This document shows, in pieces, positions 2,528-58,210 of a stretch of 58,222 nt of DNA. Within the stretch, counting starts at the first letter, position 1; every line of letters starts with the position of its first letter. The position numbers were made by a program, and so were the translations under genes. The notes beneath the pieces were generated by a model that was not told where the DNA came from, searched no databases, and was given only the letters and a program-made list of their open reading frames with translations. Origin of the DNA: a virus (lineage: Duplodnaviria; Caudoviricetes); the IMG/VR virus record IMGVR_UViG_3300045978_000161, positions 1-58,222 of that record; one strand, written 5' to 3'.

Positions 2528-3287
2528 TGTCGTTGTCTCCGGATGGTTTCAGGATGCCGCTGGTCATCAGCCGCAAGATCGAATCGCACATGAGACGCTC
2601 CGCCGCCTCGCTGATCGAGTTGCCGTAGAAGCCCGACGCGACGAGCAGCTCTAACTTCTCGCGCACCCGCGGCCCGGGCTTGAACATGACGCGCCCACTC
2701 CACCGATCGGCGAGCTGCTCGAAGCTCGTGACCGGCAGCCGATCGTCGATGATGCCGCGCGCTGCGAGCGGATCTGCGAGCACCGTGGTCTTGCCGACTG
2801 CGGCGTGCTTCTCGACGAGCACGTGCGGCTCTGCGGCCGGCGTCGGCGGCGCAGGTTTTGGCGCGGGCGCTGATTTGGCTTTCAGCGGCGGCAGCTTACG
2901 GCAGGCGGCGCAACGTGAAAAATTGCGCCCCGGTCCAGAGCGCAAGTAGTGAGATCGTGGGTGCTCCATTTGGCATCGCGAGCAGGCGACCATCGGTTCA
3001 GCGTGCTCGGTGCCGCCCACGGGTTTCGGCGGATCCTTCTGTCGGGGCGCCGGCGCGGGCGGTGCGGAGTCGCTCGTGCGCTTCGATTGTGCCGGCGGCG
3101 TGCCCGGCAGCGAATAGGTGTCTCCCTGGTCCATCACGATCTGCTTCGTGTGGACCAGGAGGCGCAGTGTCTCGCGGATCAGCGCGCTGTTCATGACGCC
3201 GGCGTTCTGAATGTCCTCGATCGAGCACCGGCCCTCGTTGGCCTTCAGCACGTCGATGATCTTGTTGCCGTGCGTCTGGTAGTTCAC
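2517..3287 (-). CDS. Putative DNA-binding regulator (wHTH-like N-terminus, CxxC-CxxC zinc finger, RHH-like C-terminus)
   Basis: GTG 3287 overlaps the VRR-NUC stop; CSRC...CAAC; Pro-rich linkers. Confidence 0.5.
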   Translation of the reverse strand: MNYQTHGNKIIDVLKANEGRCSIEDIQNAGVMNSALIRETLRLLVHTKQIVMDQGDTYSLPGTPPAQSKRTSDSAPPAPAPRQKDPPKPVGGTEHAEPMVACSRCQMEHPRSHYLRSGPGRNFSRCAACRKLPPLKAKSAPAPKPAPPTPAAEPHVLVEKHAAVGKTTVLADPLAARGIIDDRLPVTSFEQLADRWSGRVMFKPGPRVREKLELLVASGFYGNSISEAAERLMCDSILRLMTSGILKPSGDNDNER

Positions 3288-3814
3288 CGGATGCCGTCCT
3301 GCAGGTAGGTGTTGTCGCGGAAAGATCCGTCGGCGATCGCGCCGCTCATGTCCATGTACGCGCGCACGGCCTGGATCATTTCGAGCGCGCCCTTGCAGAT
3401 CTCCGCGTGATAGCCCCAACGTCGCAGGTCATCGCGCCACGTGGTCTGTTCCGCCTTCGGCGTCTCGCCTTCTCGCTTTGCTTCGAGATAAAGACCATGA
3501 AACCGACCGGAGGGAGTGTGGATCACGTAGTCGGGGAAGCCGGGCTTCATGCCGATCGACACCATGACCGCGGTCATCGCTCCCGCCTTGCCGCGCTCAT
3601 TCGGGATCTTCGCGAGCCGGCGGAAGATGGTCTCGCCCTGGAAGGTCACGAGCTGGGTCCACGCGATGAAGGTCCGACACTCGTCGGTCTCCAGCGGCGG
3701 TGCCGGATGCTGTGCCTTCCGCCGGCCCTGCTGCGTCGAGTGCGCAGCGTGCCGTTTCAACGGCGGGCGGTTGAGAGCGTCGAGATCTGCCTGGGTCATG
3801 CGCCGGCGTTTCAT
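3284..3814 (-). CDS. VRR-NUC domain nuclease (resolvase-like)
   Basis: IPNE...GMKPGFPD...GLYLEAK...EQ..W...L...GY motifs. Confidence 0.85.
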   Translation of the reverse strand: MKRRRMTQADLDALNRPPLKRHAAHSTQQGRRKAQHPAPPLETDECRTFIAWTQLVTFQGETIFRRLAKIPNERGKAGAMTAVMVSIGMKPGFPDYVIHTPSGRFHGLYLEAKREGETPKAEQTTWRDDLRRWGYHAEICKGALEMIQAVRAYMDMSGAIADGSFRDNTYLQDGIR

Positions 3815-3987
3815 CGCAGGTAGATGTACCCGATCGAGAAGCCGGCGAGCGCGACCAGGATGCAGTGGGCCACGAGCCCGGAGATCAGCCAGCGCATGTG
3901 GCCCTCGCGCAGCTGCATGAACGCGCCGATGGCCGCGGTCCCGTGGAACGCGATCACCAGGCCGAGCGTTATCTTGACGATGAGCAT
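3811..3987 (-). CDS. Small two-TM membrane protein
   Basis: 58 aa, GGGAGG SD before ATG 3987, two hydrophobic segments. Confidence 0.6.
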   Translation of the reverse strand: MLIVKITLGLVIAFHGTAAIGAFMQLREGHMRWLISGLVAHCILVALAGFSIGYIYLR

Positions 3988-4029
3988 GTTCGATCCTCCC
4001 CAGTTGGCCGGTGCATCCCCACAGCTCAT

Positions 4030-4380
4030 GCCCAGCTTTTCCACCTGATATCCACAGCCTCAAAAAGATTCGCGCGCGCGCGTCCGGATCCAGAGGTGCC
4101 AATCCGAAGTGCTACACGAGGCGTTCCAAATCCGCTGGGAGCTACCACTCCAGAGTGCAGATTTTCAGAGCGGAGGCGCACGGGTCCCTACCCACTCATG
4201 TGGCCGGACCTCGTGCGCCTGCCGGATCTGTTCAGACCCCCGTCGCATCAACGCAGCCGTCTCACCTGTTGCGGTGACGACTACCTGGTTCGCGGACAAC
4301 ACCGCGGGGCGCCGGGTCCAAGTACCCTCCGGCTCGCTTTCGCCCCAGGCCTGGCCCTCCCCGCCAGGCACTTCACTCCT
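4030..4380. other. Structured non-coding region; candidate replication origin and/or ncRNA
   Basis: No convincing ORF; stems at 4174-4220 and 4349-4369; two 1-mismatch DnaA-box-like 9-mers (4037-4045, 4048-4056); (CG)6 at 4071-4082. Confidence 0.4.
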
Positions 4381-4482
4381 AGCGAGATAAACGCTGCTGG
4401 CCGGACAGGGACCGACCGTGGTGACAGTTGGACCAGCAACGGCCGCGCGCGAACGCGCGGCGCAGGAAATATGCGGCCGGGC

Positions 4483-4911
4483 TCATGAGTTGAGCCCCTG
4501 GGCCTTCAATGTGGCAACGATATGCACGGACACCCGCCCTTCATGCGTGCGCTCGTGCATCACCAAGCCGTGCACCTCGTCGGGATGCTGCTCGAGCAGC
4601 TCCAGGACGACGCGCAGCTGCGCGAGCGCGCGGATCCGCATGTCGTCGCTGCGCGGCGCGCGCACGGTCATGTCGAAGCGTGGATCGGCCAGCGCGGCGA
4701 TCTGCGATGCCGTGACCAGCGGGTTCTCGATGAGTGGCTTCAGCAGCTCCGCGATCGCCGCGCTTGACCAGTGCACCGCGCTCACACCTTCGCAGGCGCG
4801 TATATCGACATCGAGCTGTCGCAGGGCGGTGCAGATGGCCTGCAGGCGGCCGAGAAGGGTGTCGGCCGCGGCCAATGCCACGGGCCCGTCTGCGGGCGTC
4901 TCAGGCGCCAT
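4483..4911 (-). CDS. Hypothetical protein with short TerS-like segment
   Basis: About 142 aa (start 4911 or 4920); DEVHGLVMHERT-HEG resembles TerS DLMHGLVVQVRTAHEG. Confidence 0.6.
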   Translation of the reverse strand: MAPETPADGPVALAAADTLLGRLQAICTALRQLDVDIRACEGVSAVHWSSAAIAELLKPLIENPLVTASQIAALADPRFDMTVRAPRSDDMRIRALAQLRVVLELLEQHPDEVHGLVMHERTHEGRVSVHIVATLKAQGLNS

Positions 4912-5137
4912 GCGGGGCATCCAGAGCGGGGACTTCGGTGGATCCACGTGGAACCAGGCGAAGGGCGTTGCGCGCACTGCGCGTCGCCGCCAGCTCCAGG
5001 GCCGACGGCGTGACGGGCGCACCGCACTGACAGCACTCCTCGCCCGGCTCGCCGATGGCCTGCTGATTCGGCGAGCAGCACCGGCAGTAATTGCCGGGCT
5101 GCTGGTAGGCGAGCGGTGGCGCGTCAACGTCCGCCAA
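4901..5137 (-). CDS. Small Cys-rich zinc-binding protein
   Basis: CRCC...CCQC; TTG start at 5137 inferred. Confidence 0.5.
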   Translation of the reverse strand: MADVDAPPLAYQQPGNYCRCCSPNQQAIGEPGEECCQCGAPVTPSALELAATRSARNALRLVPRGSTEVPALDAPHGA

Positions 5138-5363
5138 TGATCTTCTCCACGGTCGCGCGGTTGCGCTGCAGGACGTCCAGGATGGCGCGCGCCCCACTGC
5201 CCTCGATCGAGCCGTTGATCACGATGGTGATGGGCGCGGCCACGGGCGCGACCTTGGCGGGCAGCGCGGCCGCGGGGACTGAGAGCTCCGGCGCCGCGGC
5301 GCCGACGAGTGGCAGGGCCGCAGGTGCGGCGACGAGGCCACCGAGAAGCTGGCGACGGTTCAT
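5124..5363 (-). CDS. Twin-Arg leader peptide fused to a tape-measure C-terminus mimic
   Basis: MNRRQLL leader; last 24 aa are 11/24 identical, ungapped, to the last 24 aa of the tape measure. Confidence 0.8.
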   Translation of the reverse strand: MNRRQLLGGLVAAPAALPLVGAAAPELSVPAAALPAKVAPVAAPITIVINGSIEGSGARAILDVLQRNRATVEKIIGGR

Positions 5364-5584
5364 GCGTACACCTCGCGCGCGAGAAGTTCGTAGGGCATCT
5401 GCAGGCTTTCCGCGATCTGCCGAATCATCGTCGTGACGAATGCCGAGTAGGCTTCGGCGTTTTCGTAGGCGTCGAGATCGGCGAGCCGCTGGAGCAGCGC
5501 CGGCGAACCAGGCGAGGGCGCGAGCATCTGCGCCGGTGCGGTGGCGCCGGCGATCGCACCGAGGATCAGTTCGCGGCGGTTCAT
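5360..5584 (-). CDS. Twin-Arg leader peptide fused to a portal-segment mimic
   Basis: MNRRELI leader; YSAFVTTMIRQIAESLQMPYELL is 8/23 identical, ungapped, to portal YDPFFMAVCRQIGAALEIPLDEL. Confidence 0.75.
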   Translation of the reverse strand: MNRRELILGAIAGATAPAQMLAPSPGSPALLQRLADLDAYENAEAYSAFVTTMIRQIAESLQMPYELLAREVYA

Positions 5585-5811
5585 GGCAGTTCCACCGTCT
5601 GCGTGGCGCCCGGCACCACGGCGCCGAAGCCCAGGCGGCTGCAGCGGATGTTCTTGCCGGGGTTATCGAACATCGCCGCGTGCAACGTCACGCGATCGTT
5701 GGCCTCGTGTACCGCGAGCTGCTGGCCCTGCACCACCGTCATCGGTGCCTGCGCGAGCGCGATGTGGCGCGCGTCCAGGCCTGCGGCCGCGGCCTTCTCG
5801 TAACGATTCAT
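5581..5811 (-). CDS. Hypothetical protein
   Basis: 76 aa, ATGA-coupled at both ends. Confidence 0.65.
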   Translation of the reverse strand: MNRYEKAAAAGLDARHIALAQAPMTVVQGQQLAVHEANDRVTLHAAMFDNPGKNIRCSRLGFGAVVPGATQTVELP

Positions 5812-5981
5812 GCCACTGGCACCGGGGCCGCTGCCGAACGACCCCGGGCCTTGTCTGCAGACTTATGACTTCGGACATCCCGTGCTTGGCCGTCGGCCGG
5901 GATGTGAGCCTTGCGGCTCGACCTGATCAGCCGGTGCGCATGGCGGCACACCTGATACACGCTGCAGCGCCCGCGGATCAT
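5808..5981 (-). CDS. Possible small basic ORF overlapping structured RNA
   Basis: 57 aa, ATGA overlaps at both ends, atypical composition, three hairpins inside. Confidence 0.35.
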   Translation of the reverse strand: MIRGRCSVYQVCRHAHRLIRSSRKAHIPADGQARDVRSHKSADKARGRSAAAPVPVA

Positions 5982-6292
5982 TCGCGCCTTCCCGCGGGAA
6001 ACCCTTCTTGGGGCACGGCATCTGGCCCCTGTGCGCAAGGGTTAGATTCTTTCGCGGCGCGCTGCTTTGCGAGCGCCGCCTGTAGTTTGGGCCAATCGGC
6101 CTGGCGCACGTAGCAGATGCGTGCGGCGTGGTCGATCTCGAAGCGCTGCGCGCGAGGTTCGCGCGGATGGCCTGGCGCGACCGGGATCATGGTGAAGTCG
6201 GCGAGCGTCGGATCCGGTGCCTTGACCACCGCGGCGGGTTCCTCCGCGGGGACAATGCTCGCCGCGATCGCGGCCCGGATCAGGTGGTTCAC
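5978..6292 (-). CDS. Hypothetical protein with tail-tip-like motif
   Basis: 104 aa; KAPDPTLADFTMIPVAPGHP resembles tail-tip KPRSAALEDFDVPVAEEDRP. Confidence 0.7.
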   Translation of the reverse strand: MNHLIRAAIAASIVPAEEPAAVVKAPDPTLADFTMIPVAPGHPREPRAQRFEIDHAARICYVRQADWPKLQAALAKQRAAKESNPCAQGPDAVPQEGFPAGRRE

Positions 6293-6375
6293 TTCTTGGC
6301 CTTTGACGCGAGCAGAAGCGACACACCAAGCACCAGCAGGATGTAGGCGAGGTTGATCCAGCCGTCGCGTGTCAT
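6289..6375 (-). CDS. 28-aa hydrophobic peptide mimicking the tail-tip N-terminal helix
   Basis: MTRDGWINLAYILLVLGVSLLLASKAKK; start overlaps the cro stop, stop overlaps the next start; 9/21 identical, ungapped, to tail-tip residues 20-40. Confidence 0.7.
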   Translation of the reverse strand: MTRDGWINLAYILLVLGVSLLLASKAKK

Positions 6376-6677
6376 GGTGCGCCGAGTCCGTAGATGTCGG
6401 GCCGCAGATGCCGGCGCGTCACGGCCATGTCCGTGAGGATCTCGACGTGGCTCCAGTAGCGCTCGTCGATGAATTGGCCTTCGCTCACCCACCAGGCGAT
6501 CGCCTGCACGGTGACGGGTCGCTCGCCGGCGGACTCCATGCGCGTGCGCAGCCGGCGCGCGAATTCGGCCTGCGAGCCGCACGCCGTAAAGGCGCGGCGC
6601 AGGGCAATTCTTACCTGCTCCTGCGCCTGGTCGAGATTCACACCGGGGAAGATCTTCTGGTTTTCGGCCAGTGCCAT
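6372..6677 (-). CDS. Cro/YdaS-like HTH transcriptional regulator
   Basis: GSQAEFARRL...VTVQAIAWW...VTRRHLRPDIY; first gene at a divergent promoter region. Confidence 0.85.
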   Translation of the reverse strand: MALAENQKIFPGVNLDQAQEQVRIALRRAFTACGSQAEFARRLRTRMESAGERPVTVQAIAWWVSEGQFIDERYWSHVEILTDMAVTRRHLRPDIYGLGAP

Positions 6678-6679
6678 GT

Positions 6680-6850
6680 GCAGCTTTTACACCTGAGCCC
6701 GCAACAGACTCAAGGCGCACCTGTGAAATTCTTTCCGCGCCGCGTTGCAAGTAGGTATTGACAGGCCCCTCCGACAGCGAATCCCTGCCCCTATTTTCAA
6801 TTGTCAAGGCGCGTGGTAAATATCGGGCATGTTGCAGAGTGCGCACAGGT
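6680..6850. promoter_or_regulatory. Divergent promoter region
   Basis: AT-richer gap between divergent operons; TTGACA on + (6758-6763) and on - (6807-6802); TTGAGT-18-TAAAAG just before the cro ATG. Confidence 0.55.
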
Positions 6851-7026
6851 CGATGCTCCTGAAGCTCGCGCGGAATCACGCGATCGAGCTGCGCGGCCGT
6901 CTGTCAGTGGCGCGTCAAGTTCTCGGCCCGGCGCACCCCAAAGTCGGCGAGATCAAGAGCGAGCTGCTGCTCGCGGTCGATGCTGTGCGCACTCTGTACA
7001 CTGAACCCGAAAGGGTGGCCGCGTGA
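6829..7026 (+). CDS. Hypothetical protein
   Basis: Short ORF, first gene of the rightward operon; start uncertain. Confidence 0.45.
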   Translation: MLQSAHRSMLLKLARNHAIELRGRLSVARQVLGPAHPKVGEIKSELLLAVDAVRTLYTEPERVAA

Positions 7027-7053
7027 ACGATCCACGCCTCGCGGCTCGTTGAT

Positions 7054-7089
7054 GGCCCGCCGGCGGATCTGGGGATCTGTCGGCGGGCC
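7054..7089 (+). promoter_or_regulatory. 16-bp RNA hairpin in intergenic leader
   Basis: GGCCCGCCGGCGGATC-TGGG-GATCTGTCGGCGGGCC; two G-U pairs work only on the + strand; no U tract. Confidence 0.6.
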
Positions 7090-7112
7090 CCTGACGTAGA
7101 ACAACACGAAAC

Positions 7113-7122
7113 CCCAGGAGGG
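7113..7122 (+). repeat. Start-associated motif CCCAGGAGGG (first of 9 exact copies)
   Basis: Also at 15537, 19992, 21103, 21611, 23109, 23378, 51816 and 54188; each lies 3-7 nt before a start codon. Confidence 0.9.
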
Positions 7123-7125
7123 CAA

Positions 7126-7473
7126 ATGCCAGAGCCACGCCTTGAATGCCGCGACTGCGGTGAGTCGCTAGTAGTCTGCGATCGCTGCGTCGACGATGAT
7201 GATGTCGCCTCCTCCGCCTATCCACTCACGAGCGAAGCGCGGCGCGTTTTCCACATCGGGATATGCCCCTATCATGGTGCGCTCGCCAGGCGGTGCCCGA
7301 GGTGCGTACCGACGCATCTGATCGAGCCGGTCGACAACGGCCGCGTTGGTCCATCTCCGGAAATTCCCGATCGAATTATTCGCGCAGGTATGGTGTGCCT
7401 GCTCGTCGGCTTCGTCGCCGGCGTGCTGCTCACGCTGCTCTTGCTGCCGCAGATCGCGGCGAGGATGCACTGA
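7126..7473 (+). CDS. Cys-rich protein with C-terminal TM helix
   Basis: Multiple CxxC motifs; hydrophobic tail; strong SD. Confidence 0.7.
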   Translation: MPEPRLECRDCGESLVVCDRCVDDDDVASSAYPLTSEARRVFHIGICPYHGALARRCPRCVPTHLIEPVDNGRVGPSPEIPDRIIRAGMVCLLVGFVAGVLLTLLLLPQIAARMH

Positions 7474-12016: not shown

Positions 12017-12291
12017 TGCTGACGATCAAACGCAAGGTGGGCCAGGGGATCCGCGTCGGCAAGACGGTGCAGATCTCCGTGCACCAGCTCAGTAACCGCG
12101 GCGCGCATCTGGTGATCAAGGCGACGGGTCTCGAATTCGAGGAGGTGCTGTTCCAGTCGCACACCTGGTCGGCGGTGATCGACGGCCATCTGCTGTCGAT
12201 CACGCTGAACGACATCGTGCGCGGCGAGGCGGTGCTGGCGTGTGAAGCGAACCGCGAGCTGCGGATCGACCGGGAGGAGGTTGCATCGTGA
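12016..12291 (+). CDS. Divergent CsrA-like protein with internal duplication
   Basis: N-terminal MLTIKRKVGQGIRVG..VQISV and C-terminal GEAVLACEANRELRIDREEV match the two ends of CsrA, with about 40 extra aa between. Confidence 0.7.
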   Translation: MLTIKRKVGQGIRVGKTVQISVHQLSNRGAHLVIKATGLEFEEVLFQSHTWSAVIDGHLLSITLNDIVRGEAVLACEANRELRIDREEVAS

Positions 12292-12551
12292 GAAAGATCA
12301 TTCGCGTGGATCTCGACGTCGGCATGAATGTGCCGATCAGCGTGGCGAAGGGCGCGGTGCTGCTGCACGTCGGGTGGCGGAACGGGCCGGCGATGTACTT
12401 CCAGGTCGACACCGAGAAGGAGGTCGTGCAGCGCCAGGTCAACTGGTATCGCAACGAGGATCCACTGCCGGCGAAGGTCGGCAACTATCTCGGCACGGTG
12501 ACGGCGCCGGAAACGCTGATCACGTATCACGCATTCGAGGTGCGGCCATGA
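12288..12551 (+). CDS. Conserved phage hypothetical protein
   Basis: 87 aa; GAVLLHVG...YLGTV...HAFE. Confidence 0.65.
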   Translation: MRKIIRVDLDVGMNVPISVAKGAVLLHVGWRNGPAMYFQVDTEKEVVQRQVNWYRNEDPLPAKVGNYLGTVTAPETLITYHAFEVRP

Positions 12552-14302
12552 GCCGCACGGCCAATCTACCGATGCGCATGGACGCGCCGCCGGCGTATAC
12601 CGAACTTCCGCAGGACGTTCCGCAGGACGCGCGGCCGCACACCTTCGTGGTGGTGGGCAACACCGGATCCGGCAAGTCCAGCTCCGCCAGGTGGGGGATT
12701 GTGGAGCCGATCCTCCGCGCCCATCGGCGCGCGGCCATCATTGACCCGACGGGCGTGTGGTGGGGCTTGCGCTTCATGCGCGACGGATCGCCCGGCTTTC
12801 GCATTCCGATCCTGGGAGGCCTTTACGGCGATGCGCCGCTGCACGACTACGACGCGGCCGCGGTCGCGCGCTGGATCGGTGAGAACGATGTGCCGGTGAT
12901 CCTCGATCTCAGTGAAATGACGATCGGCGAGCGGCATGACTTCGGTGCTGACTTCTTCGCCGCGCTGTACCAGGCGAACCGGCGGCCGCTGCATCTGGTG
13001 ATCGACGAGGCCGACGAGTTCGCGCCGCAGAATCCGATGCCGGAGACGAAGCGACTGCTGCATCACGTCGATCGCATCGTGCGCCGCGGCCGCGTGCGAG
13101 GCTTCCGCCCGGTGATGATCACGCAGCGGCCGTCCGTGCTTCACAAGAATGTGATGTCGCAGGCGTCGGCGCTGGTGGCGATGCGACTCCTCGGCTCCCA
13201 GGACCGCGCCGCGGTGGAGCTGTGGATCAAGGGCCAGGGAGATCTCGCGGCCGGCAAGGAGGTGCTGAACACGCTGGCGCGGCTCCAGGTCGGCGAAGGG
13301 TGGCTGTGGGTGCCCGGGCTCAACATCCTCAACCGCGGCCGCTTCCAGTTGTTCGAGACCTACGACAGTTCGCGCACGCCGAAGGATGACGAGCCGCCTG
13401 TCGAGCCGCCTGGTCCGTTCCCATGGGCCGACGAGTTCCGCGAGCTGCTCGAGCACGTGGTCGCCGCGGATCCGCCGGCGGATCCGGATGCGCCGCCGGC
13501 GACGGCTGATGAGCTCGCGGCTGCTGAGAAACGCGGCCGCGATGCTGGCCGGCTCCTGGGATTCGACCAGGGCTTCCATGCTGCGACGGCCGCGCTGCAG
13601 GGCCGCGTGACCGGGGTGCTCAAGTCCGCGGAGGAGTTCATGGCCGGCTTGCGTGAGACCGCGGCATCCCTCGCGAATGGCGGTGCAAATCCGCCGGCGC
13701 CGCCGGCCACGCTGGTTGTGCACCCGACCAGGCAGGCCGCTGAGGAGTGGGCGAAGAAAAACGCCATCGTCCCCAAGCCTGCTGCGCCGGCGCCGAAGCC
13801 CGCGCCGCCGGTCGCGCGTGCGCAGCTCGTGACCGCGAGCAACTCCGGCGGCGAGAAGATGCTGAAGGCGCTCGCGATGCTGCAGGAGCAGCGCCCCTGG
13901 GAAGATGTGTGCGTGCTCGCCGGGATCCTGCACGCCAACGGCAACTTCTGGGTTGGCCGCAAATATCTGCTCGGCCAGGGATACGCGACCGAAGGTGCTG
14001 GCCAGGTGCTCGCGACGCCGGCGGGAATCAAGATCGCCGGCGGCCGGCAGCCGGCGCTGTCGCGCGCGGAGATCATCCAGCTGTGGCAACACAAGCTGCG
14101 CAGCCCTGGCGGTCTCATGCTCCAGGCGATCGCCGGCGCCCGCGGCTGTCAGATGTCGAAGCAGCAGCTCGTCGCCGCGCTTGGGATCAAGCCGGACAAC
14201 GGCAATTGGTGGGGCGGGTTGAAGGCCTTGCGCAAGGCGAACCTGATGGAGCAGGAGGGCGACACCTACCGGCTCACCAGCATTGTTAGAGAAGCTCGCT
14301 GA
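12548..14302 (+). CDS. HerA/DUF87-like P-loop ATPase with C-terminal wHTH-like repeats
   Basis: Walker A GNTGSGKS; IIDPTGVWWGL; Walker B LVIDEAD; RRGRVRG; ITQRP. Confidence 0.85.
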   Translation: MSRTANLPMRMDAPPAYTELPQDVPQDARPHTFVVVGNTGSGKSSSARWGIVEPILRAHRRAAIIDPTGVWWGLRFMRDGSPGFRIPILGGLYGDAPLHDYDAAAVARWIGENDVPVILDLSEMTIGERHDFGADFFAALYQANRRPLHLVIDEADEFAPQNPMPETKRLLHHVDRIVRRGRVRGFRPVMITQRPSVLHKNVMSQASALVAMRLLGSQDRAAVELWIKGQGDLAAGKEVLNTLARLQVGEGWLWVPGLNILNRGRFQLFETYDSSRTPKDDEPPVEPPGPFPWADEFRELLEHVVAADPPADPDAPPATADELAAAEKRGRDAGRLLGFDQGFHAATAALQGRVTGVLKSAEEFMAGLRETAASLANGGANPPAPPATLVVHPTRQAAEEWAKKNAIVPKPAAPAPKPAPPVARAQLVTASNSGGEKMLKALAMLQEQRPWEDVCVLAGILHANGNFWVGRKYLLGQGYATEGAGQVLATPAGIKIAGGRQPALSRAEIIQLWQHKLRSPGGLMLQAIAGARGCQMSKQQLVAALGIKPDNGNWWGGLKALRKANLMEQEGDTYRLTSIVREAR

Positions 14303-15553: not shown

Positions 15554-17617
15554 ATGCCTGTCAAGTTGAAGGCCGGTGTCGTGATAAAGATGCGGGTGTC
15601 CCGGATCGAACGCGATACCAAACAACCCCGCCAAACTTTCGACGAGGCTCCGCTGAAGGCGCTCGCCGACTCGATGAAGATCCGCCAGGAAGTACCGATC
15701 AAGGTCCGTGTCGAGGGCAAGCGGATCATCATTGTCGACGGTGAACGCCGCTGGCGAGCTGCCAAGATTGCCAAGCTGGAGTACATCGACGTGCTGGTCG
15801 ACGAGCGCAGTGACGCGCTCGATATCGCCGCGACGCAGCTCACCACCGCCGTGCAGCGCGAGCATCTGTCGCCGCTGGACATCGCGGAGTTCCTGGTCGA
15901 TCTGCAGAAGCGCGAGAAGGCAAACACCAACACGCTGCTGGCTGCGCTCGCGAAGCGCGGCATCACCGAGATCGGGCCGGCAAAGCTGGAGCGCGTCATG
16001 CGCCTTGTCGATCTGCCCGACTGGGGCAAGGAGTATGTGCGCAAGGGCGTGTTCGGCGAGAGCCACGGCGCCGCGGTGCTCCAGGTGGTTCGCTTCCCCG
16101 CGGTGCTGAAGCAGCTGCGCGGGCAGATTGCTAACGACATCAGCTGGAAGGGTGGCATCACGGTCAAGGAGCTGGTTAGCGAGGTGGAGCGCGCCGTGCG
16201 TGTCGCCGGCACCGACCTGAATCAGAAGTACGGCCAGGAGGAGGATCAGCGGCACTTCCCGATCGAGCAATGCTTGAAGTGCGAGTTCTACATCAAGATC
16301 GGCGGCGGGCAGTACTGTCAGAACCGCAAGCTGTTCGACAAGAAAAACCGCGAGGCGCTGCTGCTCAAGGCCGAGAAGGAAGCGAAGAAACAGGAGAAAG
16401 CGAAGGGCAACGGCCGCGAGCGCGAGGAGCCGGTGATCGAAACGGATCCGACGAAGGTGGAGCCGCGCAAGGTGAAGTTCGTCGACGCCAACGTGGTTTC
16501 CATGAAAGGTGTCCACTACGATCGCGCGCGGCCGCTGGACGATGCCGGCTTCGACAAGACGCAGTGCAATGGATGTCCGCACCGGCACCTGGCGAGCGCG
16601 AACGGCAAAGCCGATCACGAGGATGGTGTCGAGGATCACTGCTTCTATCCACCGTGCTTCGAGCACAAGAGCGCGAGCGATTCGCGCGTGCAGGGCCGGC
16701 GACAGAAGATGCGCGAGTACCTGGAGGCCTGGCTGCGGCCCGTCGTGGTGCGCGAGGCGCCGGCACGGCTCAACGCGAAGCAGCGCGCCGGCGTCCTGCT
16801 GTGGCTCGCGACCGGCGCCGTCGACCGTGGATCCGCATTCTACGGCGGGCAGATGCATGAGCACGCGGCACGCGCGACGGTGGCATTCCTGCAGAAGCAC
16901 CAGCTCAAGAGCTTCCCGCTGCTGATGGAGTTCGCCACTGCGAAGCTCGCGGAGGATCACGAGCGCCACCTGGTCGCGCTCGCGGTGCAGGTGATGACGC
17001 GCGAGCAGCTGCGCTGGTTCGCGCGCTACATCGCGATCGACCTGAATGATCCGGCGTTCGCGTATCGGATCGACGAGGGTTATCTGCGGCTCAAGCGCAA
17101 GGCGGAGATCATCGAACTCTGGAACACCTCAGCGATGTCATCGAAGCTGGAGCCGAACCTGTCTACGTCGCAGCTGCGCGACTGGTGTCTCGAGGTGAAT
17201 GCCCGCCAGAAGATCGGCGTGCCGGCCGACATCCAGGCGCTGTACGACGAGACCGAGGAGACGCGCGTCGACGAGGATGAGGACGATCTGCTCGATGAGG
17301 ACGATCAAACCGTCTGCATCGGCTGTGGCTGCTCCGACTTCGATGCCTGTCCGGACGGGTGCTCATGGGTCGTCCAAGGCGATCGCCGCGGCTACATGCC
17401 GGGCGGCAATGTCGGCGTCTGCAGCAACCCGGCGTGCGCACCTCATATGGAGCGGTTCCGCCGGCGGGACTTCACGCTGTCGGAGGTGGCCGAGAAACGG
17501 GTGGCGGAGCGCGACAAGCGCCGCAAGCAAGACGATGAGCAGCTCGCCGAAGCCGGCGGCGAGTTGGGCGAGATCCTCGCTGCCGGTAAAAAGCGGCGAA
17601 TGCCGCGGGAGGTGTGA
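15554..17617 (+). CDS. Large ParB/RepB/Spo0J family protein
   Basis: QPRQTFD..LKALADS; IVDGERRWRAA; QREHLSPLD; Cys clusters. Confidence 0.9.
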   Translation: MPVKLKAGVVIKMRVSRIERDTKQPRQTFDEAPLKALADSMKIRQEVPIKVRVEGKRIIIVDGERRWRAAKIAKLEYIDVLVDERSDALDIAATQLTTAVQREHLSPLDIAEFLVDLQKREKANTNTLLAALAKRGITEIGPAKLERVMRLVDLPDWGKEYVRKGVFGESHGAAVLQVVRFPAVLKQLRGQIANDISWKGGITVKELVSEVERAVRVAGTDLNQKYGQEEDQRHFPIEQCLKCEFYIKIGGGQYCQNRKLFDKKNREALLLKAEKEAKKQEKAKGNGREREEPVIETDPTKVEPRKVKFVDANVVSMKGVHYDRARPLDDAGFDKTQCNGCPHRHLASANGKADHEDGVEDHCFYPPCFEHKSASDSRVQGRRQKMREYLEAWLRPVVVREAPARLNAKQRAGVLLWLATGAVDRGSAFYGGQMHEHAARATVAFLQKHQLKSFPLLMEFATAKLAEDHERHLVALAVQVMTREQLRWFARYIAIDLNDPAFAYRIDEGYLRLKRKAEIIELWNTSAMSSKLEPNLSTSQLRDWCLEVNARQKIGVPADIQALYDETEETRVDEDEDDLLDEDDQTVCIGCGCSDFDACPDGCSWVVQGDRRGYMPGGNVGVCSNPACAPHMERFRRRDFTLSEVAEKRVAERDKRRKQDDEQLAEAGGELGEILAAGKKRRMPREV

Positions 17618-35142: not shown

Positions 35143-37814
35143 CAGCGCCCTCCTAACAATCGTTTCAGTGTCACCGAGTTCTTGCTGATGACGTTCATGA
35201 TCGCCCGTTCGCCGGACGCGGAGTTGATCCCGTCGGCGACCAGGTTCTCGTCGACCAGGTTGACGATGCGGATGCCCTGGGTGCCGGAAGCCTGCGCGCC
35301 GGCGGGCGTGCTGACAGGTGGACCCACCTGGCCGCCGGTGGCGAAGCGCGGCGCGCGCATCACATCGCGGAGCCGCAAGCGACCGGCGTTCCACGCGCGC
35401 ATGAAATTGAGCGCGCCCGGCTCCATGAGCCTCGCCTTGCGCAGCACGAATTCGCCCTCTTGCGCGAGGATCGGGATTTTGTCCGGCCCCGGGATCGGGA
35501 GCCTTGGGCCGGCAACATCGCCGCCGCCGACATAGCCGCGGATGCGGCCGCCGTACTGCGCCAGGCCCGCGCCGACGCCGGTCAATCCGGATCCGGCCTG
35601 CGTCGCGCCGCCGGCGCCGCCACCGAAGGCGCTGAACAAGGTGCGCACCAGGGCGAGCGTCGCCTGCTGCGCGATGATCTCGGCCACCATCCGGCGCAGC
35701 GAGTCGACCACACTGCGCGCCAGAGACTTGAAGGCGTCGCCGATGTCCTCGATCTTGTCGGCGTTCGCGAGGAAATCCTCCAGGCCCGACTGGAAGGCGT
35801 CGATGCCGGCGTTGCGGAACTGCGTGGCGAAGTCGGTCGCGGCCTTGTAGCTCAACGCGATCTGATCCACCGACGCGGCGAACTCGCGCGCCTTCTTTAT
35901 CTGCTCCTCGTTGCCCGACGCTTCGGCCGCCGCGAGCATCGCCTGCGCGAGCTGCTGGAGCAGCTCCAGCCGCTGCTGTTCCAGGTCCAGGATTGCGCGC
36001 TCGCCCTCGGCCTGGCTGCGCAAGCCGAGTTCGACGTCGTTGCGGATCTGCTCCTGGTCGCGCTGGAAGGCTTCGAGCGCATCACTGCCCTGTCGCTGCA
36101 GCTCATCGAAGTTGAACGCCTGCTCCGACAGCGCGCGCACCCTGTTGACGGTGGCCTCGATCTCCGCGGCCGTCTGCCCGGCGCGGATCCCAAGCTCGCG
36201 GATCTGCTCCAGCTCCAATTCGAGGTTGTTCTGGAAGGCCTGGTGCCGGTTGCCCTCCAGGTCCGCGAGCTTCGTCTGCAGCTCCAGCTGCTGCTGGCCG
36301 AGTTCTTTTCGTGCGGCCGCCTCGTCGGCGTCGATCTGCGCCAGCTCGCGCGCGGACGCGACCCGCTGCCGGGCGATCTGCGCATCGAGCTGCGCGAGCT
36401 GCTGGCGCAGCTTGATGCGATCGGCCTCATCCTCCGGGCCACCTTCCGTGCTGCTCGAGTTCAGCTGCGAGACGAGTGCGGCGCGCTGCGCCTTCAAGGC
36501 CTGCAGTTCGACCGCGTTCTCCCGCTCCTGCAGCTCGCGCCGGCGGGCGAAGAATTGCTGCAGGGAGATCAGGCCCTGGTCGTAGGCGTTCTGATTCTCC
36601 TGATTCAGCGTTTTCAGGTGCTCTTGCTGCAGCTTCAGCTCATCGTCGAAGGCCTGCTTGCTGGCGGCGCGCTGCGCGGCCGCGGCCTTGCGCGCGGCAT
36701 CCAGCGCAAAGTTCGGATCCACGCCGAGTGGGGTGGCGGACTTCTTGGGCGGCTCGTCGGTGGTCAGCTTGTCGAACGCGCCGCGGATGTCCTCCGCGGC
36801 CGCAAGATCAATCTCCGCTCGCTCGCGGGCGCTGCGCTCGAATGCGGCGGCCGCACCCTCAAAGTCGCCCTTCGCGATCGCCTTGCCCGCGTCAATGATC
36901 GCGCTGACGAAGCTCACGACCTTCGCGGTCACCGCGCCGATGGTCCTGCCGACGCTCACGAACAGGAACGTGACCGTCTTGATCACGATGCCGATGGCCT
37001 GGCCGAGCACCTTGAAGCCGTTGGTGGCGCCCGTGGTCGCGCCCGTTATTGTCTCCATGGAGTCGGCGACCGCCGGCGCCAGGCCCGACAGGAACTGAGT
37101 GGCGACGCCTTCGGCCTGCAGGCCGATCGTCTGCAGTGAGTCGTTGGCGCGCGCGGCCGCGTCGGCGAGATCTGCGTCGATGAGTACGCCGAGTTCCTTC
37201 GCCTTCGCGATGAAGGCGTCGATGCCCTGCTCGCCCACCGCCTTCAGTGCGGTTGTGAGCTCGCCGGCGCCGCGGCCGAAGATGCGCTGCGCGGCGGCCG
37301 CGCGGTCGGCCGCGTTCGGGATCGCGGCGAGCTTGCGCGCAATCTCCTCCAGTGCTCGAGGCGCGGAGAGATTGCCGAACTTCGCGATGTCGACGCCGAT
37401 CGCGGCAAGGTTGTCCTTTGCCTCCTGGCTGCCGGCGGCCACCTGGCCCATGATGTTGGTCGTCTTGAACAGCGCGGTCTGCAGGCCTTCCTGGGACGAC
37501 TGGTTCTGCCGGAACGCGAGCGTCAGGCCCGACACTTCTTCGACGGTGCCTCCGACGGATGCGGCGAGCTTGCCGGTCTTGTCGGCGGTGTCGAGCGCCG
37601 CCTTGCCGAGCGCGATCATGCCGGCGACCGCGGCCGCGAGACCGATCGCGGGAAGGACTGACTTCAGCTCCTGGGCAGCCTGCTTGACCAGGCCGAGCTT
37701 CTTGCCGGCGTTGTCGCCGGATTTCTTCGATTCGTTTTCGATCTTCCGCAGCGCCGCGATGACTTCGTTGATGCCTTCGGGCGAGAGACGGACGCGAATG
37801 TCTGGGGTGCTCAT
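35142..37814 (-). CDS. Tape measure protein
   Basis: 890 aa, Ala-rich coiled coil; GPDKIPILAQEGEFVL...FATGG C-terminus. Confidence 0.95.
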   Translation of the reverse strand: MSTPDIRVRLSPEGINEVIAALRKIENESKKSGDNAGKKLGLVKQAAQELKSVLPAIGLAAAVAGMIALGKAALDTADKTGKLAASVGGTVEEVSGLTLAFRQNQSSQEGLQTALFKTTNIMGQVAAGSQEAKDNLAAIGVDIAKFGNLSAPRALEEIARKLAAIPNAADRAAAAQRIFGRGAGELTTALKAVGEQGIDAFIAKAKELGVLIDADLADAAARANDSLQTIGLQAEGVATQFLSGLAPAVADSMETITGATTGATNGFKVLGQAIGIVIKTVTFLFVSVGRTIGAVTAKVVSFVSAIIDAGKAIAKGDFEGAAAAFERSARERAEIDLAAAEDIRGAFDKLTTDEPPKKSATPLGVDPNFALDAARKAAAAQRAASKQAFDDELKLQQEHLKTLNQENQNAYDQGLISLQQFFARRRELQERENAVELQALKAQRAALVSQLNSSSTEGGPEDEADRIKLRQQLAQLDAQIARQRVASARELAQIDADEAAARKELGQQQLELQTKLADLEGNRHQAFQNNLELELEQIRELGIRAGQTAAEIEATVNRVRALSEQAFNFDELQRQGSDALEAFQRDQEQIRNDVELGLRSQAEGERAILDLEQQRLELLQQLAQAMLAAAEASGNEEQIKKAREFAASVDQIALSYKAATDFATQFRNAGIDAFQSGLEDFLANADKIEDIGDAFKSLARSVVDSLRRMVAEIIAQQATLALVRTLFSAFGGGAGGATQAGSGLTGVGAGLAQYGGRIRGYVGGGDVAGPRLPIPGPDKIPILAQEGEFVLRKARLMEPGALNFMRAWNAGRLRLRDVMRAPRFATGGQVGPPVSTPAGAQASGTQGIRIVNLVDENLVADGINSASGERAIMNVISKNSVTLKRLLGGR

Positions 37815-47365: not shown

Positions 47366-49095
47366 CACTGTCCCCCTTCCGGCGCTGCCTCCGGCTCCGG
47401 CACCTGCTGGCGCCGCGCCGGCGGCGCGTTCGGGTTCTCCGGATCCTGGCCCGGGGGATTCTGCCCCGGCCGCGCCGGATTGTCCGCGGAGCCCGGCGCC
47501 TGGCCTTGCGCCGGACGCAGCTCCATGTCGTTTGCCTTTCGCCATTTCTGCTCCCTCAGCCGCTGGCGGGCGACGGTCGACCAGTTCTCGCCCATGATCT
47601 GCGCGGTCTCGATCGTCTCGTTGCTGAAGCCGGCGTCGATGCGATCGCGCGCGGCCTGCACCTCATCCTTCTCCTGCATCGCACCGCGCGCGGGACCGAT
47701 CCAGATCGCCTTCTGATACGCGGCGCGACGCTTCGGATCCGCGTAGTCGGTGACCGTCACCTTGCCGCGGGCCACTGCCTCGTCGAACCACAGCGCGTAA
47801 TGCGGCTGGCAGAACTGCTGCACGAGCCACCACCGGCGCATGGAATAGAAGCGCCAGGCCTGCAGCATCGCGGCGCGCGCGGCGCTGTAGCTTGCCTGGT
47901 AGTTGAGGAGCAGCTCGTCGAGCGGTATCTCCAGTGCGGCGCCGATCTGCCGGCACACGGCCATGAAGAACGGGTCGTAGTTGCTGTTGGGCCGCGCGGG
48001 GTTTGCGAACTGCGCCTCCTCACCAGGTCCCAGATCCATGACGACGCCATTGCCGAGCGCCAGGCCCGACGCCTCACCCTTCGCCGTCATGCCAGGCACC
48101 GCGGGAATCGGGTTGCCCTTGTCGTCGAACTGGTTGCTCTCCCGCTTGATGAACACGGTGAACATCGCGGAGATGACCGCGGCGATCAGCTCCGCGCGCG
48201 AGTACTGCTCGAGCGTCTGCAGCGGCTCCAGGATCGGTGCGAGGTACGGCATCCCGCGCGTGGTGCCGATGCGATCCTTTTCATTCCACACCTGCAGGAT
48301 GCGGCGCCGCCCCTCCTCGTCGAAGATCTCGCGCCGGTCCCACACCATCGCGTCGACGCTCGCGAACTTGTCATCCGGGTGCCGCCGGCGGATGTGGATC
48401 GCGATCGGCCGCCCGTTGTCGGAGATCTCCACGCCGTCGAGAAGGTTGCGCGTGTCGGCCTGGCCGTTCTGATTGGTGACGCGCGCGGGGTCGATCAGCT
48501 GCACCTTGAGTTCGTACTGCGAGCCTTCGGCCGGCACCATCGGTGTCAGCGCGAAGCAGTCACCACCCAGGAGTGCGGTGATCAGCGCGAGCGACTGGAG
48601 CCCCGCGCCGTCGAGTGTCGCCTCGATGTCGACCTCCACCGGGTTGTCGTAGTAGCAAGCCCACTCCGACAGGATCTCGTTGTTCAGCTCCTCCGCCTGC
48701 TCCTCGCTGATGCCGAGCGCATCGGCGTCGACGTCGGGGTGCATGGTGAGGCCGGTGCCCACCACGTTCGTGCGCACGCGCGTCGCGGCCGCGCGCGCGA
48801 CCAGGTGGTTGCGGTACGCATCGAAGGATCGCGCCGCGGTGGTCTCGCGTTCCTTGCGCGAGTTGTCGCTGCGGCCGGATCCGAGCACCGGGCGCCAGCC
48901 GGTCATTGACCGCAGGAAATTGCTCGCGCCGCGCCACCGGGTTTCCGATCGCTGGCGCTCCACCGAGCTGCCGCTGTTCGCTTCCAGCTCCTTCAGGTGG
49001 TTGTACTGAATGCGGTGCAGGACGTTCTGCACGGCGCGCGCGGGGTTGATGGCGAACGCGATCCGCTCGCGCAGGCTCATGTCTGGAGCTTTCAT
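47365..49095 (-). CDS. Portal protein (lambda family)
   Basis: RSFDAYRN; TNVVGTGL; RIGTTRGMP; ASYSAARAA. Confidence 0.95.
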   Translation of the reverse strand: MKAPDMSLRERIAFAINPARAVQNVLHRIQYNHLKELEANSGSSVERQRSETRWRGASNFLRSMTGWRPVLGSGRSDNSRKERETTAARSFDAYRNHLVARAAATRVRTNVVGTGLTMHPDVDADALGISEEQAEELNNEILSEWACYYDNPVEVDIEATLDGAGLQSLALITALLGGDCFALTPMVPAEGSQYELKVQLIDPARVTNQNGQADTRNLLDGVEISDNGRPIAIHIRRRHPDDKFASVDAMVWDRREIFDEEGRRRILQVWNEKDRIGTTRGMPYLAPILEPLQTLEQYSRAELIAAVISAMFTVFIKRESNQFDDKGNPIPAVPGMTAKGEASGLALGNGVVMDLGPGEEAQFANPARPNSNYDPFFMAVCRQIGAALEIPLDELLLNYQASYSAARAAMLQAWRFYSMRRWWLVQQFCQPHYALWFDEAVARGKVTVTDYADPKRRAAYQKAIWIGPARGAMQEKDEVQAARDRIDAGFSNETIETAQIMGENWSTVARQRLREQKWRKANDMELRPAQGQAPGSADNPARPGQNPPGQDPENPNAPPARRQQVPEPEAAPEGGQ

Positions 49096-49316
49096 CAGGA
49101 CACCGGCGTCACGTAGATGAGACGGTTGCGGCCCTTCTGGCTATCGGGCAGCCCCTCCTGCGCAGCCTTGGCCGCGTAGCTCTCCTCCAGTTTCATGAGT
49201 GTCTCCAGGCTCGCCATCGTGATGGCGCGGCCGTTGTACTGCACCTGCTGGCCGCCGGCGACCAGCTCGTCGATCGCGGTGCGCACTGCTTCGAGTCGCT
49301 GCGTGTAGGTTGCCAT
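49095..49316 (-). CDS. Head completion protein (gpW-like)
   Basis: 73 aa between TerL and portal. Confidence 0.8.
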   Translation of the reverse strand: MATYTQRLEAVRTAIDELVAGGQQVQYNGRAITMASLETLMKLEESYAAKAAQEGLPDSQKGRNRLIYVTPVS

Positions 49317-58142: not shown

Positions 58143-58210
58143 GACTGCTCCCCAGAATGCGTGACGAAACGAAATGGCGTTTTTTTGCCTGCGGCCCCTC
58201 AAATTGGGGG

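What the first reader, a model, noticed from the sequence alone, without database searches (positions are those of the whole stretch)
5360..5584. Portal-fragment peptide with twin-arginine-like leader
Seen: YSAFVTTMIRQIAESLQMPYELL versus portal YDPFFMAVCRQIGAALEIPLDEL (within about 47899-47988), 8/23 identical and ungapped. Its IA..L..PYE.L pattern appears closer to the lambda-family portal consensus, as I recall it, than this phage's own portal does. It may therefore mimic portals generally. Its leader MNRRELI parallels MNRRQLL of the neighbouring gene, suggesting a reusable leader plus swappable payload design. Inference: a decoy for portal sensors such as Avs4, or a portal oligomerisation poison.
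Basis: partly seen in the sequence, partly recalled or inferred. Interest (0 to 1): 0.85.

Follow-up and report, generated by a model that had tools for sequence, protein, structure and literature searches.

The report
Export-leader peptides carrying virion-protein fragments
A phage carries two adjacent tiny genes that each join a secretion-type leader to a fragment of one of its particle proteins (portal, tail tape measure), an unreported design that probably serves interference by molecular mimicry.

Summary
It is translationally coupled to both neighbours.

**Portal relationship.** The raw 8/23 identity to the portal is not above chance. The relationship holds at profile level:
- Pfam lambda-portal profile, E 5.7e-5.
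- Profile-profile comparison with diverse portals, 93.7% probability.
- 0 of 5000 shuffles reach the real score.

**Family.** Three other 72-86-aa proteins (42-70% identical) have the same build: an invariant MNRR twin-arginine-type leader, a variable linker, then portal stem helix 2. One member also matches stem helix 1, with the clip domain missing.

**Neighbour gene.** The next gene (5124-5363) has the same kind of leader. Its last 34 residues match the last 34 residues of the phage's own tape measure protein (E 2e-6).

**Function.** The Avs4-decoy reading is not supported. The leader predicts export from or tethering outside the cytoplasm, and Avs sensors read whole folds. My best guess (about 0.35) is Tat-targeted subunit mimics that interfere with portal and tape-measure function of competing phages. 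Function is untested. The design appears new.

The parts
5360..5584 (-). P0002: 74-aa ORF (stop at 5360-5362), the finding. Built as leader, linker, portal-stem payload.
   Evidence: Codon-position GC is 0.69/0.48/0.80, as expected for a coding frame. ATGA overlaps at both ends. The identical protein was seen on 11 contigs. Homologues are P0005, P0006 and P0007.
5528..5584 (-). Twin-arginine-type leader of P0002 (residues 1-19).
   Evidence: M1 N2 R3 R4 are invariant in 4 of 4 family members. The hydrophobic stretch after RR is uncharged. P0007 passes the TIGR01409 cut-off at 19.3 against 16.7 bits; P0002 itself gives no hit. AF2 predicts a helix at residues 3-15.
5456..5527 (-). Variable Pro/Ala-rich linker plus a segment resembling portal stem helix 1 (residues 20-43).
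   Evidence: Second BLASTP HSP against the Fusobacterium phage portal: 16/47, E 1e-3. Against the own portal residues 277-312: 13/42, E 0.14. P0007 residues 33-59 match portal-profile stem helix 1 at 13.1 bits. This part is weak for P0002 itself.
5372..5455 (-). Portal stem helix 2 plus the PYELL turn (residues 44-71).
   Evidence: It aligns to lambda gpB 327-376. The gpB stem is residues 343-367 and the wing resumes at 368 (PMC10721106, passage read). AF2 predicts helices at 43-60 and 65-73 with pLDDT about 84.
5124..5363 (-). P0003: 79-aa neighbour with the same kind of leader (residues 1-20, 5304-5363) and a payload matching the tape-measure C-terminus (residues 46-79, 5127-5228).
   Evidence: Pfam TAT_signal scores E 0.052. 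No small homologue was found.
5581..5811 (-). P0004: 76-aa upstream gene of the same coupled string. It starts MNRY and has no hydrophobic leader.
   Evidence: No family or phage match.
5978..6292 (-). 104-aa ORF whose N-terminus resembles the leader of family member P0006 but has MNHLIR instead of RR.
   Evidence: BLASTP 15/29, E 2e-4. No match to phage records or families.
6372..6677 (-). Cro/YdaS-type helix-turn-helix regulator at the head of the leftward gene string.
   Evidence: PF15943 E 1.8e-8, above its cut-off. phrog_35 repressor E 3.6e-4.
47908..47985 (-). The segment of the phage's own portal (residues 371-396 of 47365-49095) that aligns with P0002 residues 44-69.
35145..35246 (-). 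C-terminal 34 residues of the tape measure protein (gene 35142-37814) that align with the C-terminus of P0003.
   Evidence: The module is conserved at the ends of tape measure genes in 113 phage records; the gene ends were checked in 5 of them.

Best explanation
SHOWN: P0002 is a genuine, conserved small gene. It encodes three modules:
- a twin-arginine (Tat-type) leader;
- a variable Pro/Ala linker;
- a segment descended from a lambda-family portal gene, namely stem helix 2 with its PYELL turn. Traces of stem helix 1 precede it, and the clip domain between the two helices is missing.

P0002 is the first of two translationally coupled genes of the same design. The second, P0003, carries the C-terminal module of the tape measure protein.

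INFERRED (about 0.35): the two products are subunit mimics used in conflict between phages.
- Each payload is the part of an oligomeric virion protein that packs against other subunits or partners. It can therefore bind the full-length protein or its docking site.
- The Tat leader takes the mimic, possibly with what it has bound, to or across the inner membrane.
- For P0002 the only place a portal subunit can be met is the cytoplasm. I therefore propose that it captures portal monomers of incoming lambda-family phages and mislocalises or poisons them. The phage's own divergent portal (PLDEL instead of PYELL) would be spared.
- For P0003, blocking the incoming tape measure protein in the periplasm is equally possible.
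For: Gene reality:
- Coding-type GC by codon position and ATGA coupling at both ends.
- The identical protein occurs on 11 contigs, and 21 of 24 listed soil runs hold at least half of the sampled words.
- Contigs from 2 RNA libraries of 2 studies match 5358-5571 and 5386-5536 without differences. This is only a weak hint, because DNA can be present in such libraries.
- Three homologues are 42-70% identical over full length. Conservation is concentrated in the leader and the portal-like helix.

Portal descent:
- (4 of 4 members hit PF05136).
- Two portal pieces occur in the correct order with the clip absent.

Leader:
- MNRR is invariant in 4 of 4 members.
- P0007 is over the TIGR01409 cut-off.
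- Only P0002 and P0003 pass my RR-leader filter in six frames of 58 kb.

Second payload.

Sparing of self: the family matches diverse portals (93.7%) far better than the phage's own portal clade (18.5%).

Precedent:
- The prophage protein Tab blocks tail assembly, with specificity mapped to the tape measure C-terminus (PMC10884400, sections 7-9 read).
- The tape measure C-terminal module here is shared with JBD/D3112-type Pseudomonas phages.
Against: - No functional test of any kind was done.
- P0002 itself gives no hit to the Tat-signal models, so the Tat assignment rests on the motif and on one homologue.
- A portal never reaches the periplasm, so an exported portal mimic has no obvious target. 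The capture-and-mislocalise step is pure inference.
- P0003's payload resembles the phage's own tape measure protein, so self-poisoning would need to be avoided by timing.
- The family is very rare: 3 hits at E <= 0.001 among 1.84 billion representatives, none in 50,697 phage records outside portal genes, and none in the viral or genome contig scans.
- The genomic context of the three homologues could not be seen.
- No integrase was found (the record is estimated 81% complete), so expression from a lysogen cannot be assumed.
Confidence: 0.35

Rival explanations
1. Purely periplasmic superinfection-exclusion peptides. Both products are exported and act in the envelope on the injection machinery of incoming phages. 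The portal-like helix would have been co-opted as a binding helix for an envelope or tail target unrelated to portals.
For: - The Tat-type leader.
- The tape measure C-terminus lies at the tail tip and enters the envelope at infection (established knowledge).
- Exported or membrane exclusion proteins that act through the tape measure protein are known: Ltp (title of Bebeacua 2013, seen only in the reference list of PMC3952083) and HK97 gp15 (titles seen in reference lists only).
- The genes lie in a leftward string next to the regulator gene.
Against: - This explains P0003 well but gives P0002 no target.
- Conservation of the portal-specific motif across 42%-identical homologues and its fit to the portal profile suggest that portal-like contacts are still selected.
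Confidence: 0.22
2. Cytoplasmic decoys for host sensors of virion proteins (Avs4 or Avs11 for portal, Avs18 for tape measure protein).
For: - Portal and tape measure protein are both among the proteins sensed by Avs families (bioRxiv 10.64898/2026.01.04.697583, passages read; review PMC13728456, passages read).
- An early-region location would suit an anti-defence gene.
Against: - The leader predicts removal from the cytoplasm.
- Avs proteins are described as recognising folds through extended interfaces, not a 28-residue helix.
- A ligand mimic would be expected to activate such sensors rather than silence them (inference).
- No paper on portal-fragment decoys was found.
Confidence: 0.1
3. 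Evolutionary debris. Fragments of virion genes were captured by illegitimate recombination behind a pre-existing small leader-encoding gene, and the frames stay open without function.
For: - The family is extremely rare.
- P0003 has no homologue.
- Phage early regions are full of short-lived ORFs (general knowledge).
Against: - Four full-length members diverged down to 42% identity. The leader and the helix are conserved while the linker is free to vary.
- The codon-position GC is that of a coding frame.
- Stop and start codons are exactly coupled at both ends.
- Two independent payloads sit behind the same kind of leader.
Confidence: 0.13
4. Chance resemblance. The helix only looks portal-like because of Ala/Leu-rich composition.
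For: - The raw 8/23 identity is reached by 193 of 300 shuffles.
- BLASTP against the own portal gives E 0.14 on a different register.
- The Pfam score is below the gathering cut-off.
Against: - 0 of 5000 shuffles reach the profile score for 3 of 4 members.
- All 4 members hit PF05136 at the same profile positions.
- hhalign E 1.9e-7.
- The family HMM picks out portal ORFs among 20,601 ORFs of 93 loci.
- The genuine portal's own 35-aa piece scores only 3.7 bits more.
Confidence: 0.03

Closest known systems
Lambda-family portal protein (Pfam PF05136; lambda gpB, PDB 8k38)
   Same: Residues 44-71 are homologous to stem helix 2 and the following turn: gpB 350-376 within the aligned 327-376. One family member also matches stem helix 1.
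   Different: 74 aa against about 530-580 aa. There is no wing, clip or crown domain. The score is below the family cut-off. It has an N-terminal twin-arginine leader that portals lack. It lies in the early region, not the head module.
Tab (tail assembly blocker) of Pseudomonas prophage JBD26, and the Tai systems
   Same: Small phage-borne proteins that interfere with another phage's virion proteins. Tab specificity maps to the tape measure C-terminus (PMC10884400), which is the very module copied in P0003.
   Different: - No sequence similarity was seen. tblastn of P0003 against all phage records gave no match, and P0002 hit portal genes only. The Tab sequence itself was not fetched.
- Tab is not described as a fragment of its target or as carrying a leader. 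The word 'transmembrane' does not occur in the paper, and all 6 occurrences of 'membrane' fall in the methods (blotting) or the reference list.
- The gene position differs: tab lies between the terminase genes.
Envelope superinfection-exclusion proteins acting through the tape measure protein (Ltp of TP-J34, HK97 gp15)
   Same: Predicted envelope location. The target would be a phage injection or tail protein. They are carried by the phage itself.
   Different: No homology. Those proteins are a lipoprotein and a membrane protein, not copies of a virion-protein segment. They are known to me here only from titles in reference lists and from recall.
Twin-arginine (Tat) signal peptides (TIGR01409, PF10518)
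   Same: An RR-x-hydrophobic-hydrophobic motif at residues 3-7, a short weakly hydrophobic Gly/Ala-rich stretch, and Ala-x-Ala-like sites. P0007 is over the TIGR01409 cut-off.
   Different: P0002 itself gives no hit to either model. The cargo would be a roughly 50-residue peptide with no cofactor. Export is untested.

Membership tests
Phage_portal_2 (PF05136), lambda-family portal | Whole-protein score over the curated cut-off (32.9 bits), with the match covering most of the 354 profile positions. | tested here: not met
   22.9 bits on profile positions 302-330 only. 19.3 bits in the six-frame scan.
Phage_portal_2 (PF05136), lambda-family portal | Local homology to the stem helix 2 / PYELL segment. 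| tested here: met
   (4 of 4 members).
Phage_portal_2 (PF05136), lambda-family portal | Wing, clip and crown domains, and a dodecameric ring. | tested here: not met
   The protein has 74 residues. HMMER aligns it across a 69-column deletion where the clip lies. The AF2 model shows four short helices.
Tat signal peptide | Twin arginine followed by hydrophobic residues, then an uncharged hydrophobic stretch. | tested here: met
   RRELI at residues 3-7 and an uncharged 13-mer with mean Kyte-Doolittle hydropathy 1.73. RR is invariant in 4 of 4 members.
Tat signal peptide | Score over the curated cut-off of TIGR01409 or PF10518. | tested here: inconclusive
   P0002 gives no hit. P0007 scores 19.3 against 16.7 bits on TIGR01409, and one of the four members, not named in that output, scores PF10518 E 8.3e-4. 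P0003 scores PF10518 E 0.052, below its cut-off.
Tat signal peptide | Tat-dependent export and leader cleavage. | not testable with these tools
   No signal-peptide predictor or experiment was available. The host is unknown.
Tab / Tai virion-assembly interference | Sequence homology to Tab or Tai proteins. | tested here: inconclusive
   tblastn against 50,697 phage records found portal genes only for P0002 and nothing for P0003. Tab and Tai sequences were not compared directly.
Tab / Tai virion-assembly interference | Blocks assembly of an invading phage, paired with a counter-protein. | not testable with these tools
   Needs plating and electron microscopy. No counter-gene was identified.
Decoy of Avs portal sensors | Binds the sensor domain of Avs4 or Avs11 without activating it. 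| not testable with these tools
   No sensor sequence is at hand from this host. The structure paper was not held.

The most novel reading that the evidence does not exclude
A programmable 'leader plus payload' array. Each gene fuses a Tat leader to the oligomerisation segment of a different virion protein. The fragment co-assembles in the cytoplasm with the full-length subunit of a competing phage. The Tat pathway is the one export route that accepts folded complexes. It would then drag the complex to the membrane or out of the cell by hitchhiking. This would be a new class of phage-against-phage weapon that evicts virion subunits, with new specificities made simply by capturing another gene fragment.
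Probability: 0.12. Interest if true: 0.9.

Novelty: new variant of a known kind. Interest (0 to 1): 0.7.

Why it matters
Small phage genes of unknown function are the largest unexplored part of phage genomes. Here two of them can be read from sequence alone. Each is a shared export-type leader fused to the interface segment of an essential, conserved virion protein.

If they act as mimics, they show a very cheap evolutionary route to new interference specificities: copy about 30-60 residues of the target behind a leader. They would also give a direct handle on which portal and tape-measure surfaces are vulnerable.

The design is testable with two short synthetic genes and RR-to-KK controls. 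It could guide searches for other self-fragment genes in phage early regions.

Tried and rejected
- **Complex prediction.** P0002 residues 27-74 with portal residues 240-440: score 0.01, no verdict, controls not run. This is no evidence either way.
- **Foldseek of the AF2 model against PDB**: no match at E <= 0.001. The top rows were unrelated helical proteins, and the model is only medium confidence (pLDDT 68).
- **ESM Atlas**: only sub-threshold leads. TAT_signal and Fe-hydrogenase small-subunit clusters scored 0.84-0.85, and a portal cluster had TM 0.48.
- **Metagenome scan hit L004**: turned out to lie in a 543-aa ORF with no portal features. Rejected as a false match.
- **Viral-contig hits L094 and L095** for P0006: these lie in a roughly 4200-aa ORF and match only the proline-rich linker. 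Rejected.
- **Scans for relatives of the small family** in viral contigs and genome contigs: none found.
- **80 phage loci fetched through a neighbouring gene**: only 36-49% identical in that gene. They hold no small homologue, so no syntenic relative of the locus was obtained.
- **Other small ORFs of the string** (P0004, the 104-aa ORF, and the 4483-5143 stretch): no match to phage records and none to anything else in the window.
- **N-terminal resemblance of P0002 to the portal clip strands.** The BLASTP extension through a 14-residue gap is not kept by profile-profile alignment. I do not claim it.
- **Promoter and terminator scan of 3000-7300**: nothing useful on the minus strand.
- **DNA repeats between the gene starts**: only short matches of about 80% identity, so there is no recent duplication.
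- **RNA-library coverage gaps** are not used as evidence.
- **Literature.** Searches for Tat-exported exclusion proteins, portal decoys and dominant-negative portal fragments found no such report. This covers only the held library.
- **Supplements were closed.** Supplementary Fig. 4 of the Tab paper, on the tape measure C-terminal sequence, might show whether the Tab-specificity region equals the module copied in P0003.

Full report
**What is at the coordinates**

The window is a complete IMG/VR virus record of 58,222 bp, about 65% G+C, estimated 81% complete.

At 5360-5584 on the minus strand lies a 74-aa ORF, P0002. Its start codon overlaps the stop of the upstream 76-aa ORF P0004 (5581-5811) in an ATGA. 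Its stop overlaps the start of the downstream 79-aa ORF P0003 (5124-5363) in another ATGA.

G+C by codon position is 0.69/0.48/0.80, the pattern of real genes in this genome.

The string of small genes runs leftward from a Cro/YdaS-type regulator (6372-6677, PF15943 E 1.8e-8) towards a VRR-NUC nuclease gene (3284-3694). It is therefore an early or accessory region, far from the head genes.

The portal is 47365-49095 (PF05136 E 1.4e-87). The large terminase is 49316-51295. The tape measure protein is 35142-37814.

**Checking the observation**

That number alone means nothing:
- 193 of 300 shuffles of the peptide reach 8/23 somewhere on the portal.
- BLASTP against the phage's own portal reports only E 0.14, on another register.

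The relationship is nevertheless real:
- Pfam's lambda-portal profile matches residues 43-71 at profile positions 302-330, E 5.7e-5, 22.9 bits, below the 32.9-bit cut-off.
- PHROG 537 (portal) matches at E 1.8e-4.
- A six-frame scan of the whole record with PF05136 finds exactly two places, the portal gene and this ORF.
- tblastn against 50,697 phage records gave 27 records. 21 are annotated as portal genes under the match. 4 more have the same query range and identity as the portal hits but are annotated hypothetical or are unannotated. 2 are unrelated, at E 9. Only 6 records have E <= 0.01.
- As a calibration, the equivalent 35-aa piece of the phage's own portal scores 26.8 bits and that of a Fusobacterium phage portal 35.3 bits, against 23.1 bits for P0002. 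The ORF is thus almost as portal-like in this segment as a real portal.
- A profile of 7 diverse portals (A3) scores P0002 at 19.2 bits, while the best of 5000 shuffles scores 5.5.

**A small family**

An exhaustive HMMER search of 1.84 billion representatives found three relatives and nothing else at E <= 0.001:

| Protein | Length (aa) | Identity to P0002 |
|---|---|---|
| P0005 | 72 | 71% |
| P0006 | 79 | 44% |
| P0007 | 86 | 43% |

- All align over full length. In the MAFFT alignment the identities to P0002 are 70, 43 and 42%.
- Invariant residues cluster in the N-terminus (M1 N2 R3 R4) and in the C-terminal helix (A48 F49 V50 R55 I57 L68). The linker varies freely.
- All 4 members hit PF05136, best E 2.6e-5.
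- The family profile's best PDB hit is lambda portal gpB, residues 327-376, E 0.0015.
- In gpB the stem is 250-279 plus 343-367, the clip is 280-342, and the wing resumes at 368 (PMC10721106, passage read). The conserved helix is therefore stem helix 2 plus the first turn of the wing.
- hhalign of the family against the 7 diverse portals gives 93.7% probability, E 1.9e-7, over 26 columns: P0002 44-69 against portal 371-396.
- P0007 also matches stem helix 1 (residues 33-59, 13.1 bits) just before its match to stem helix 2 (49-78, 10.0 bits).
- HMMER aligns P0002 and P0005 to the portal profile across a 69-column gap where the clip lies.
- BLASTP of P0002 against the Fusobacterium phage portal likewise gives a second HSP on stem helix 1 (16/47, E 1e-3).

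Two pieces in the right order with the clip missing argue for descent from a portal gene rather than convergence.

The source was not the resident portal. Against 34 portals of the phage's own clade the same columns reach only 18.5% probability, E 1.3e-3. That clade has P-x-D-E-L where the small family and most lambda-family portals have P-Y-E-L-L.

**The leader**

All four members and P0003 begin MNRR followed by hydrophobic residues.
- P0007 passes the curated cut-off of TIGR01409 (19.3 against 16.7 bits). One of the four family members, not named in that output, hits PF10518 at E 8.3e-4.
- P0003 reaches PF10518 at E 0.052. P0002 itself gives no hit.
- In six frames of the whole window, with any start codon and at least 40 aa, only P0002 and P0003 have RR-x-hydrophobic-hydrophobic within 15 residues followed by an uncharged 13-mer of mean hydropathy at least 1.2.
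- The two leaders share 10/20 residues.
- AF2 on the 4-sequence alignment (mean pLDDT 68) predicts helix 3-15, a disordered stretch at 15-25, and helices at 28-35, 43-60 and 65-73. The last two have pLDDT about 84.

**The neighbour changes the picture**

- The last 34 residues of P0003 align without gaps to the last 34 residues of the phage's own 890-aa tape measure protein. Both end in GGR. There are 13/34 identities and 24/34 positives, E 2e-6.
- In a six-frame search of the window the alignment extends over 63 residues at E 3.8e-5.
- This C-terminal module is conserved in 113 phage records, mostly Pseudomonas JBD/D3112- and YuA-type and Stenotrophomonas phages. In the 5 records I inspected it sits at the very end of the tape measure gene.
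- P0003 aligns with those ends: hhalign 69% probability, E 4.3e-5, and 14.3 bits against a best shuffle of 7.3 in 5000. That profile includes the phage's own protein.
- P0003 has no small homologue in the word-indexed search.

Two adjacent genes thus carry the same kind of leader in front of fragments of two unrelated virion proteins.

A third gene of the string, the 104-aa ORF at 5978-6292, has an N-terminus like the leader of P0006 (15/29, E 2e-4). It lacks the arginine pair, and its remainder matches nothing.

**Is it expressed and real DNA?**

- The stretch is held by 24 listed soil runs, 21 of them with at least half of the sampled words. Six may be the source sample.
- Contigs from two metatranscriptome libraries of two studies match 5358-5571 and 5386-5536 with no differences. 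This is a weak hint of transcription only, because DNA can be present in such libraries and contigs give no strand.

**How it may work**

Shown: the modular architecture and its conservation. Everything about function is inference.

- The payloads are the parts through which oligomeric virion proteins pack. Stem helices form the wall of the portal ring. The tape measure C-terminus sits in the tail tip and leads the way into the envelope at infection (established knowledge).
- Small phage-borne proteins that disable another phage's virion proteins are known. Tab blocks tail assembly, and its specificity maps to the tape measure C-terminus (PMC10884400, sections 7-9 read). The Tai systems also interfere with tail assembly (PMC11364771, passages read).
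- I therefore favour subunit mimicry in phage-phage interference, at about 0.35.
- The twin-arginine type of leader matters. Tat is the pathway that accepts folded proteins and complexes, and a portal subunit can only be met in the cytoplasm. For P0002 I propose capture of foreign portal monomers and their mislocalisation or poisoning at the membrane. The divergence of the resident portal at this very motif fits self-sparing.
- For P0003 a periplasmic block of the incoming tape measure protein is at least as likely.

Rivals:
- A purely periplasmic role with a non-portal target: 0.22.
- Decoys for Avs-type sensors: 0.10. Portal and tape measure protein are both sensed. But sensing is by fold over extended interfaces, the leader points away from the cytoplasm, and a mimic should activate rather than silence the sensor.
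- Functionless debris: 0.13.
- Chance: 0.03.

**Comparison and novelty**

P0002 is not a portal. It fails the cut-off and lacks three of four domains. It is a portal-derived fragment. It is not demonstrably a member of the Tab, Tai, Ltp or gp15 families.

I found no report of Tat-led virion-protein fragments, of portal-fragment decoys or of dominant-negative portal fragments in the held library.

I rate it a new variant of phage-encoded interference. It would be categorically new if eviction through Tat were true.

Limits:
- The family is very rare.
- The host is unknown. The nearest named portals are from Luteimonas and Pseudomonas, 60-67% identical in the searched region.
- No integrase was found.

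Noticed in passing
window 5978-6292 (-): A 104-aa ORF at the head of the same gene string has an N-terminus resembling the leader of family member P0006 (15/29 identical, E 2e-4) but with MNHLIR instead of MNRR. The rest matches nothing. It may be a third, degenerate leader-plus-payload gene.
   Followed up: partly
window 4901-5143 (-): A Cys-rich small ORF (motifs CRCC and CCQC) lies directly after P0003. It probably starts at a TTG that overlaps the end of P0003, and its stop overlaps the ATG of the next ORF (about 4483-4914). There is no family or phage match.
   Followed up: partly
window 12242-14302 (+): A 686-aa early-region protein has a terminase-large-subunit-like / FtsK-like ATPase match (phrog_2666 E 6e-18). 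It is separate from the true large terminase at 49316-51295.
   Followed up: no
window 15554-17617 (+) and 57345-58202 (-): There are two ParB-like proteins and no integrase match anywhere in the record (PF00589). The phage may be non-integrating (plasmid-like), or the integrase lies in the missing part (record estimated 81% complete).
   Followed up: partly
window 53745-54185 (+): Match to an anti-restriction protein family (phrog_10132, E 9.6e-36). The phage therefore carries at least one recognisable anti-defence gene elsewhere.
   Followed up: no
window 4307-4608: One RNA-library contig of run X19 joins 4307 to 4608, skipping 300 bases. The shorter side is only 21 letters, so it may come from another organism or a variant genome.
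   Followed up: no
window 49080 vs 49095 (-): The portal as called in public collections (P0009, 571 aa) is 5 residues shorter than the longest ORF (576 aa). The true start is probably the second ATG.
   Followed up: no
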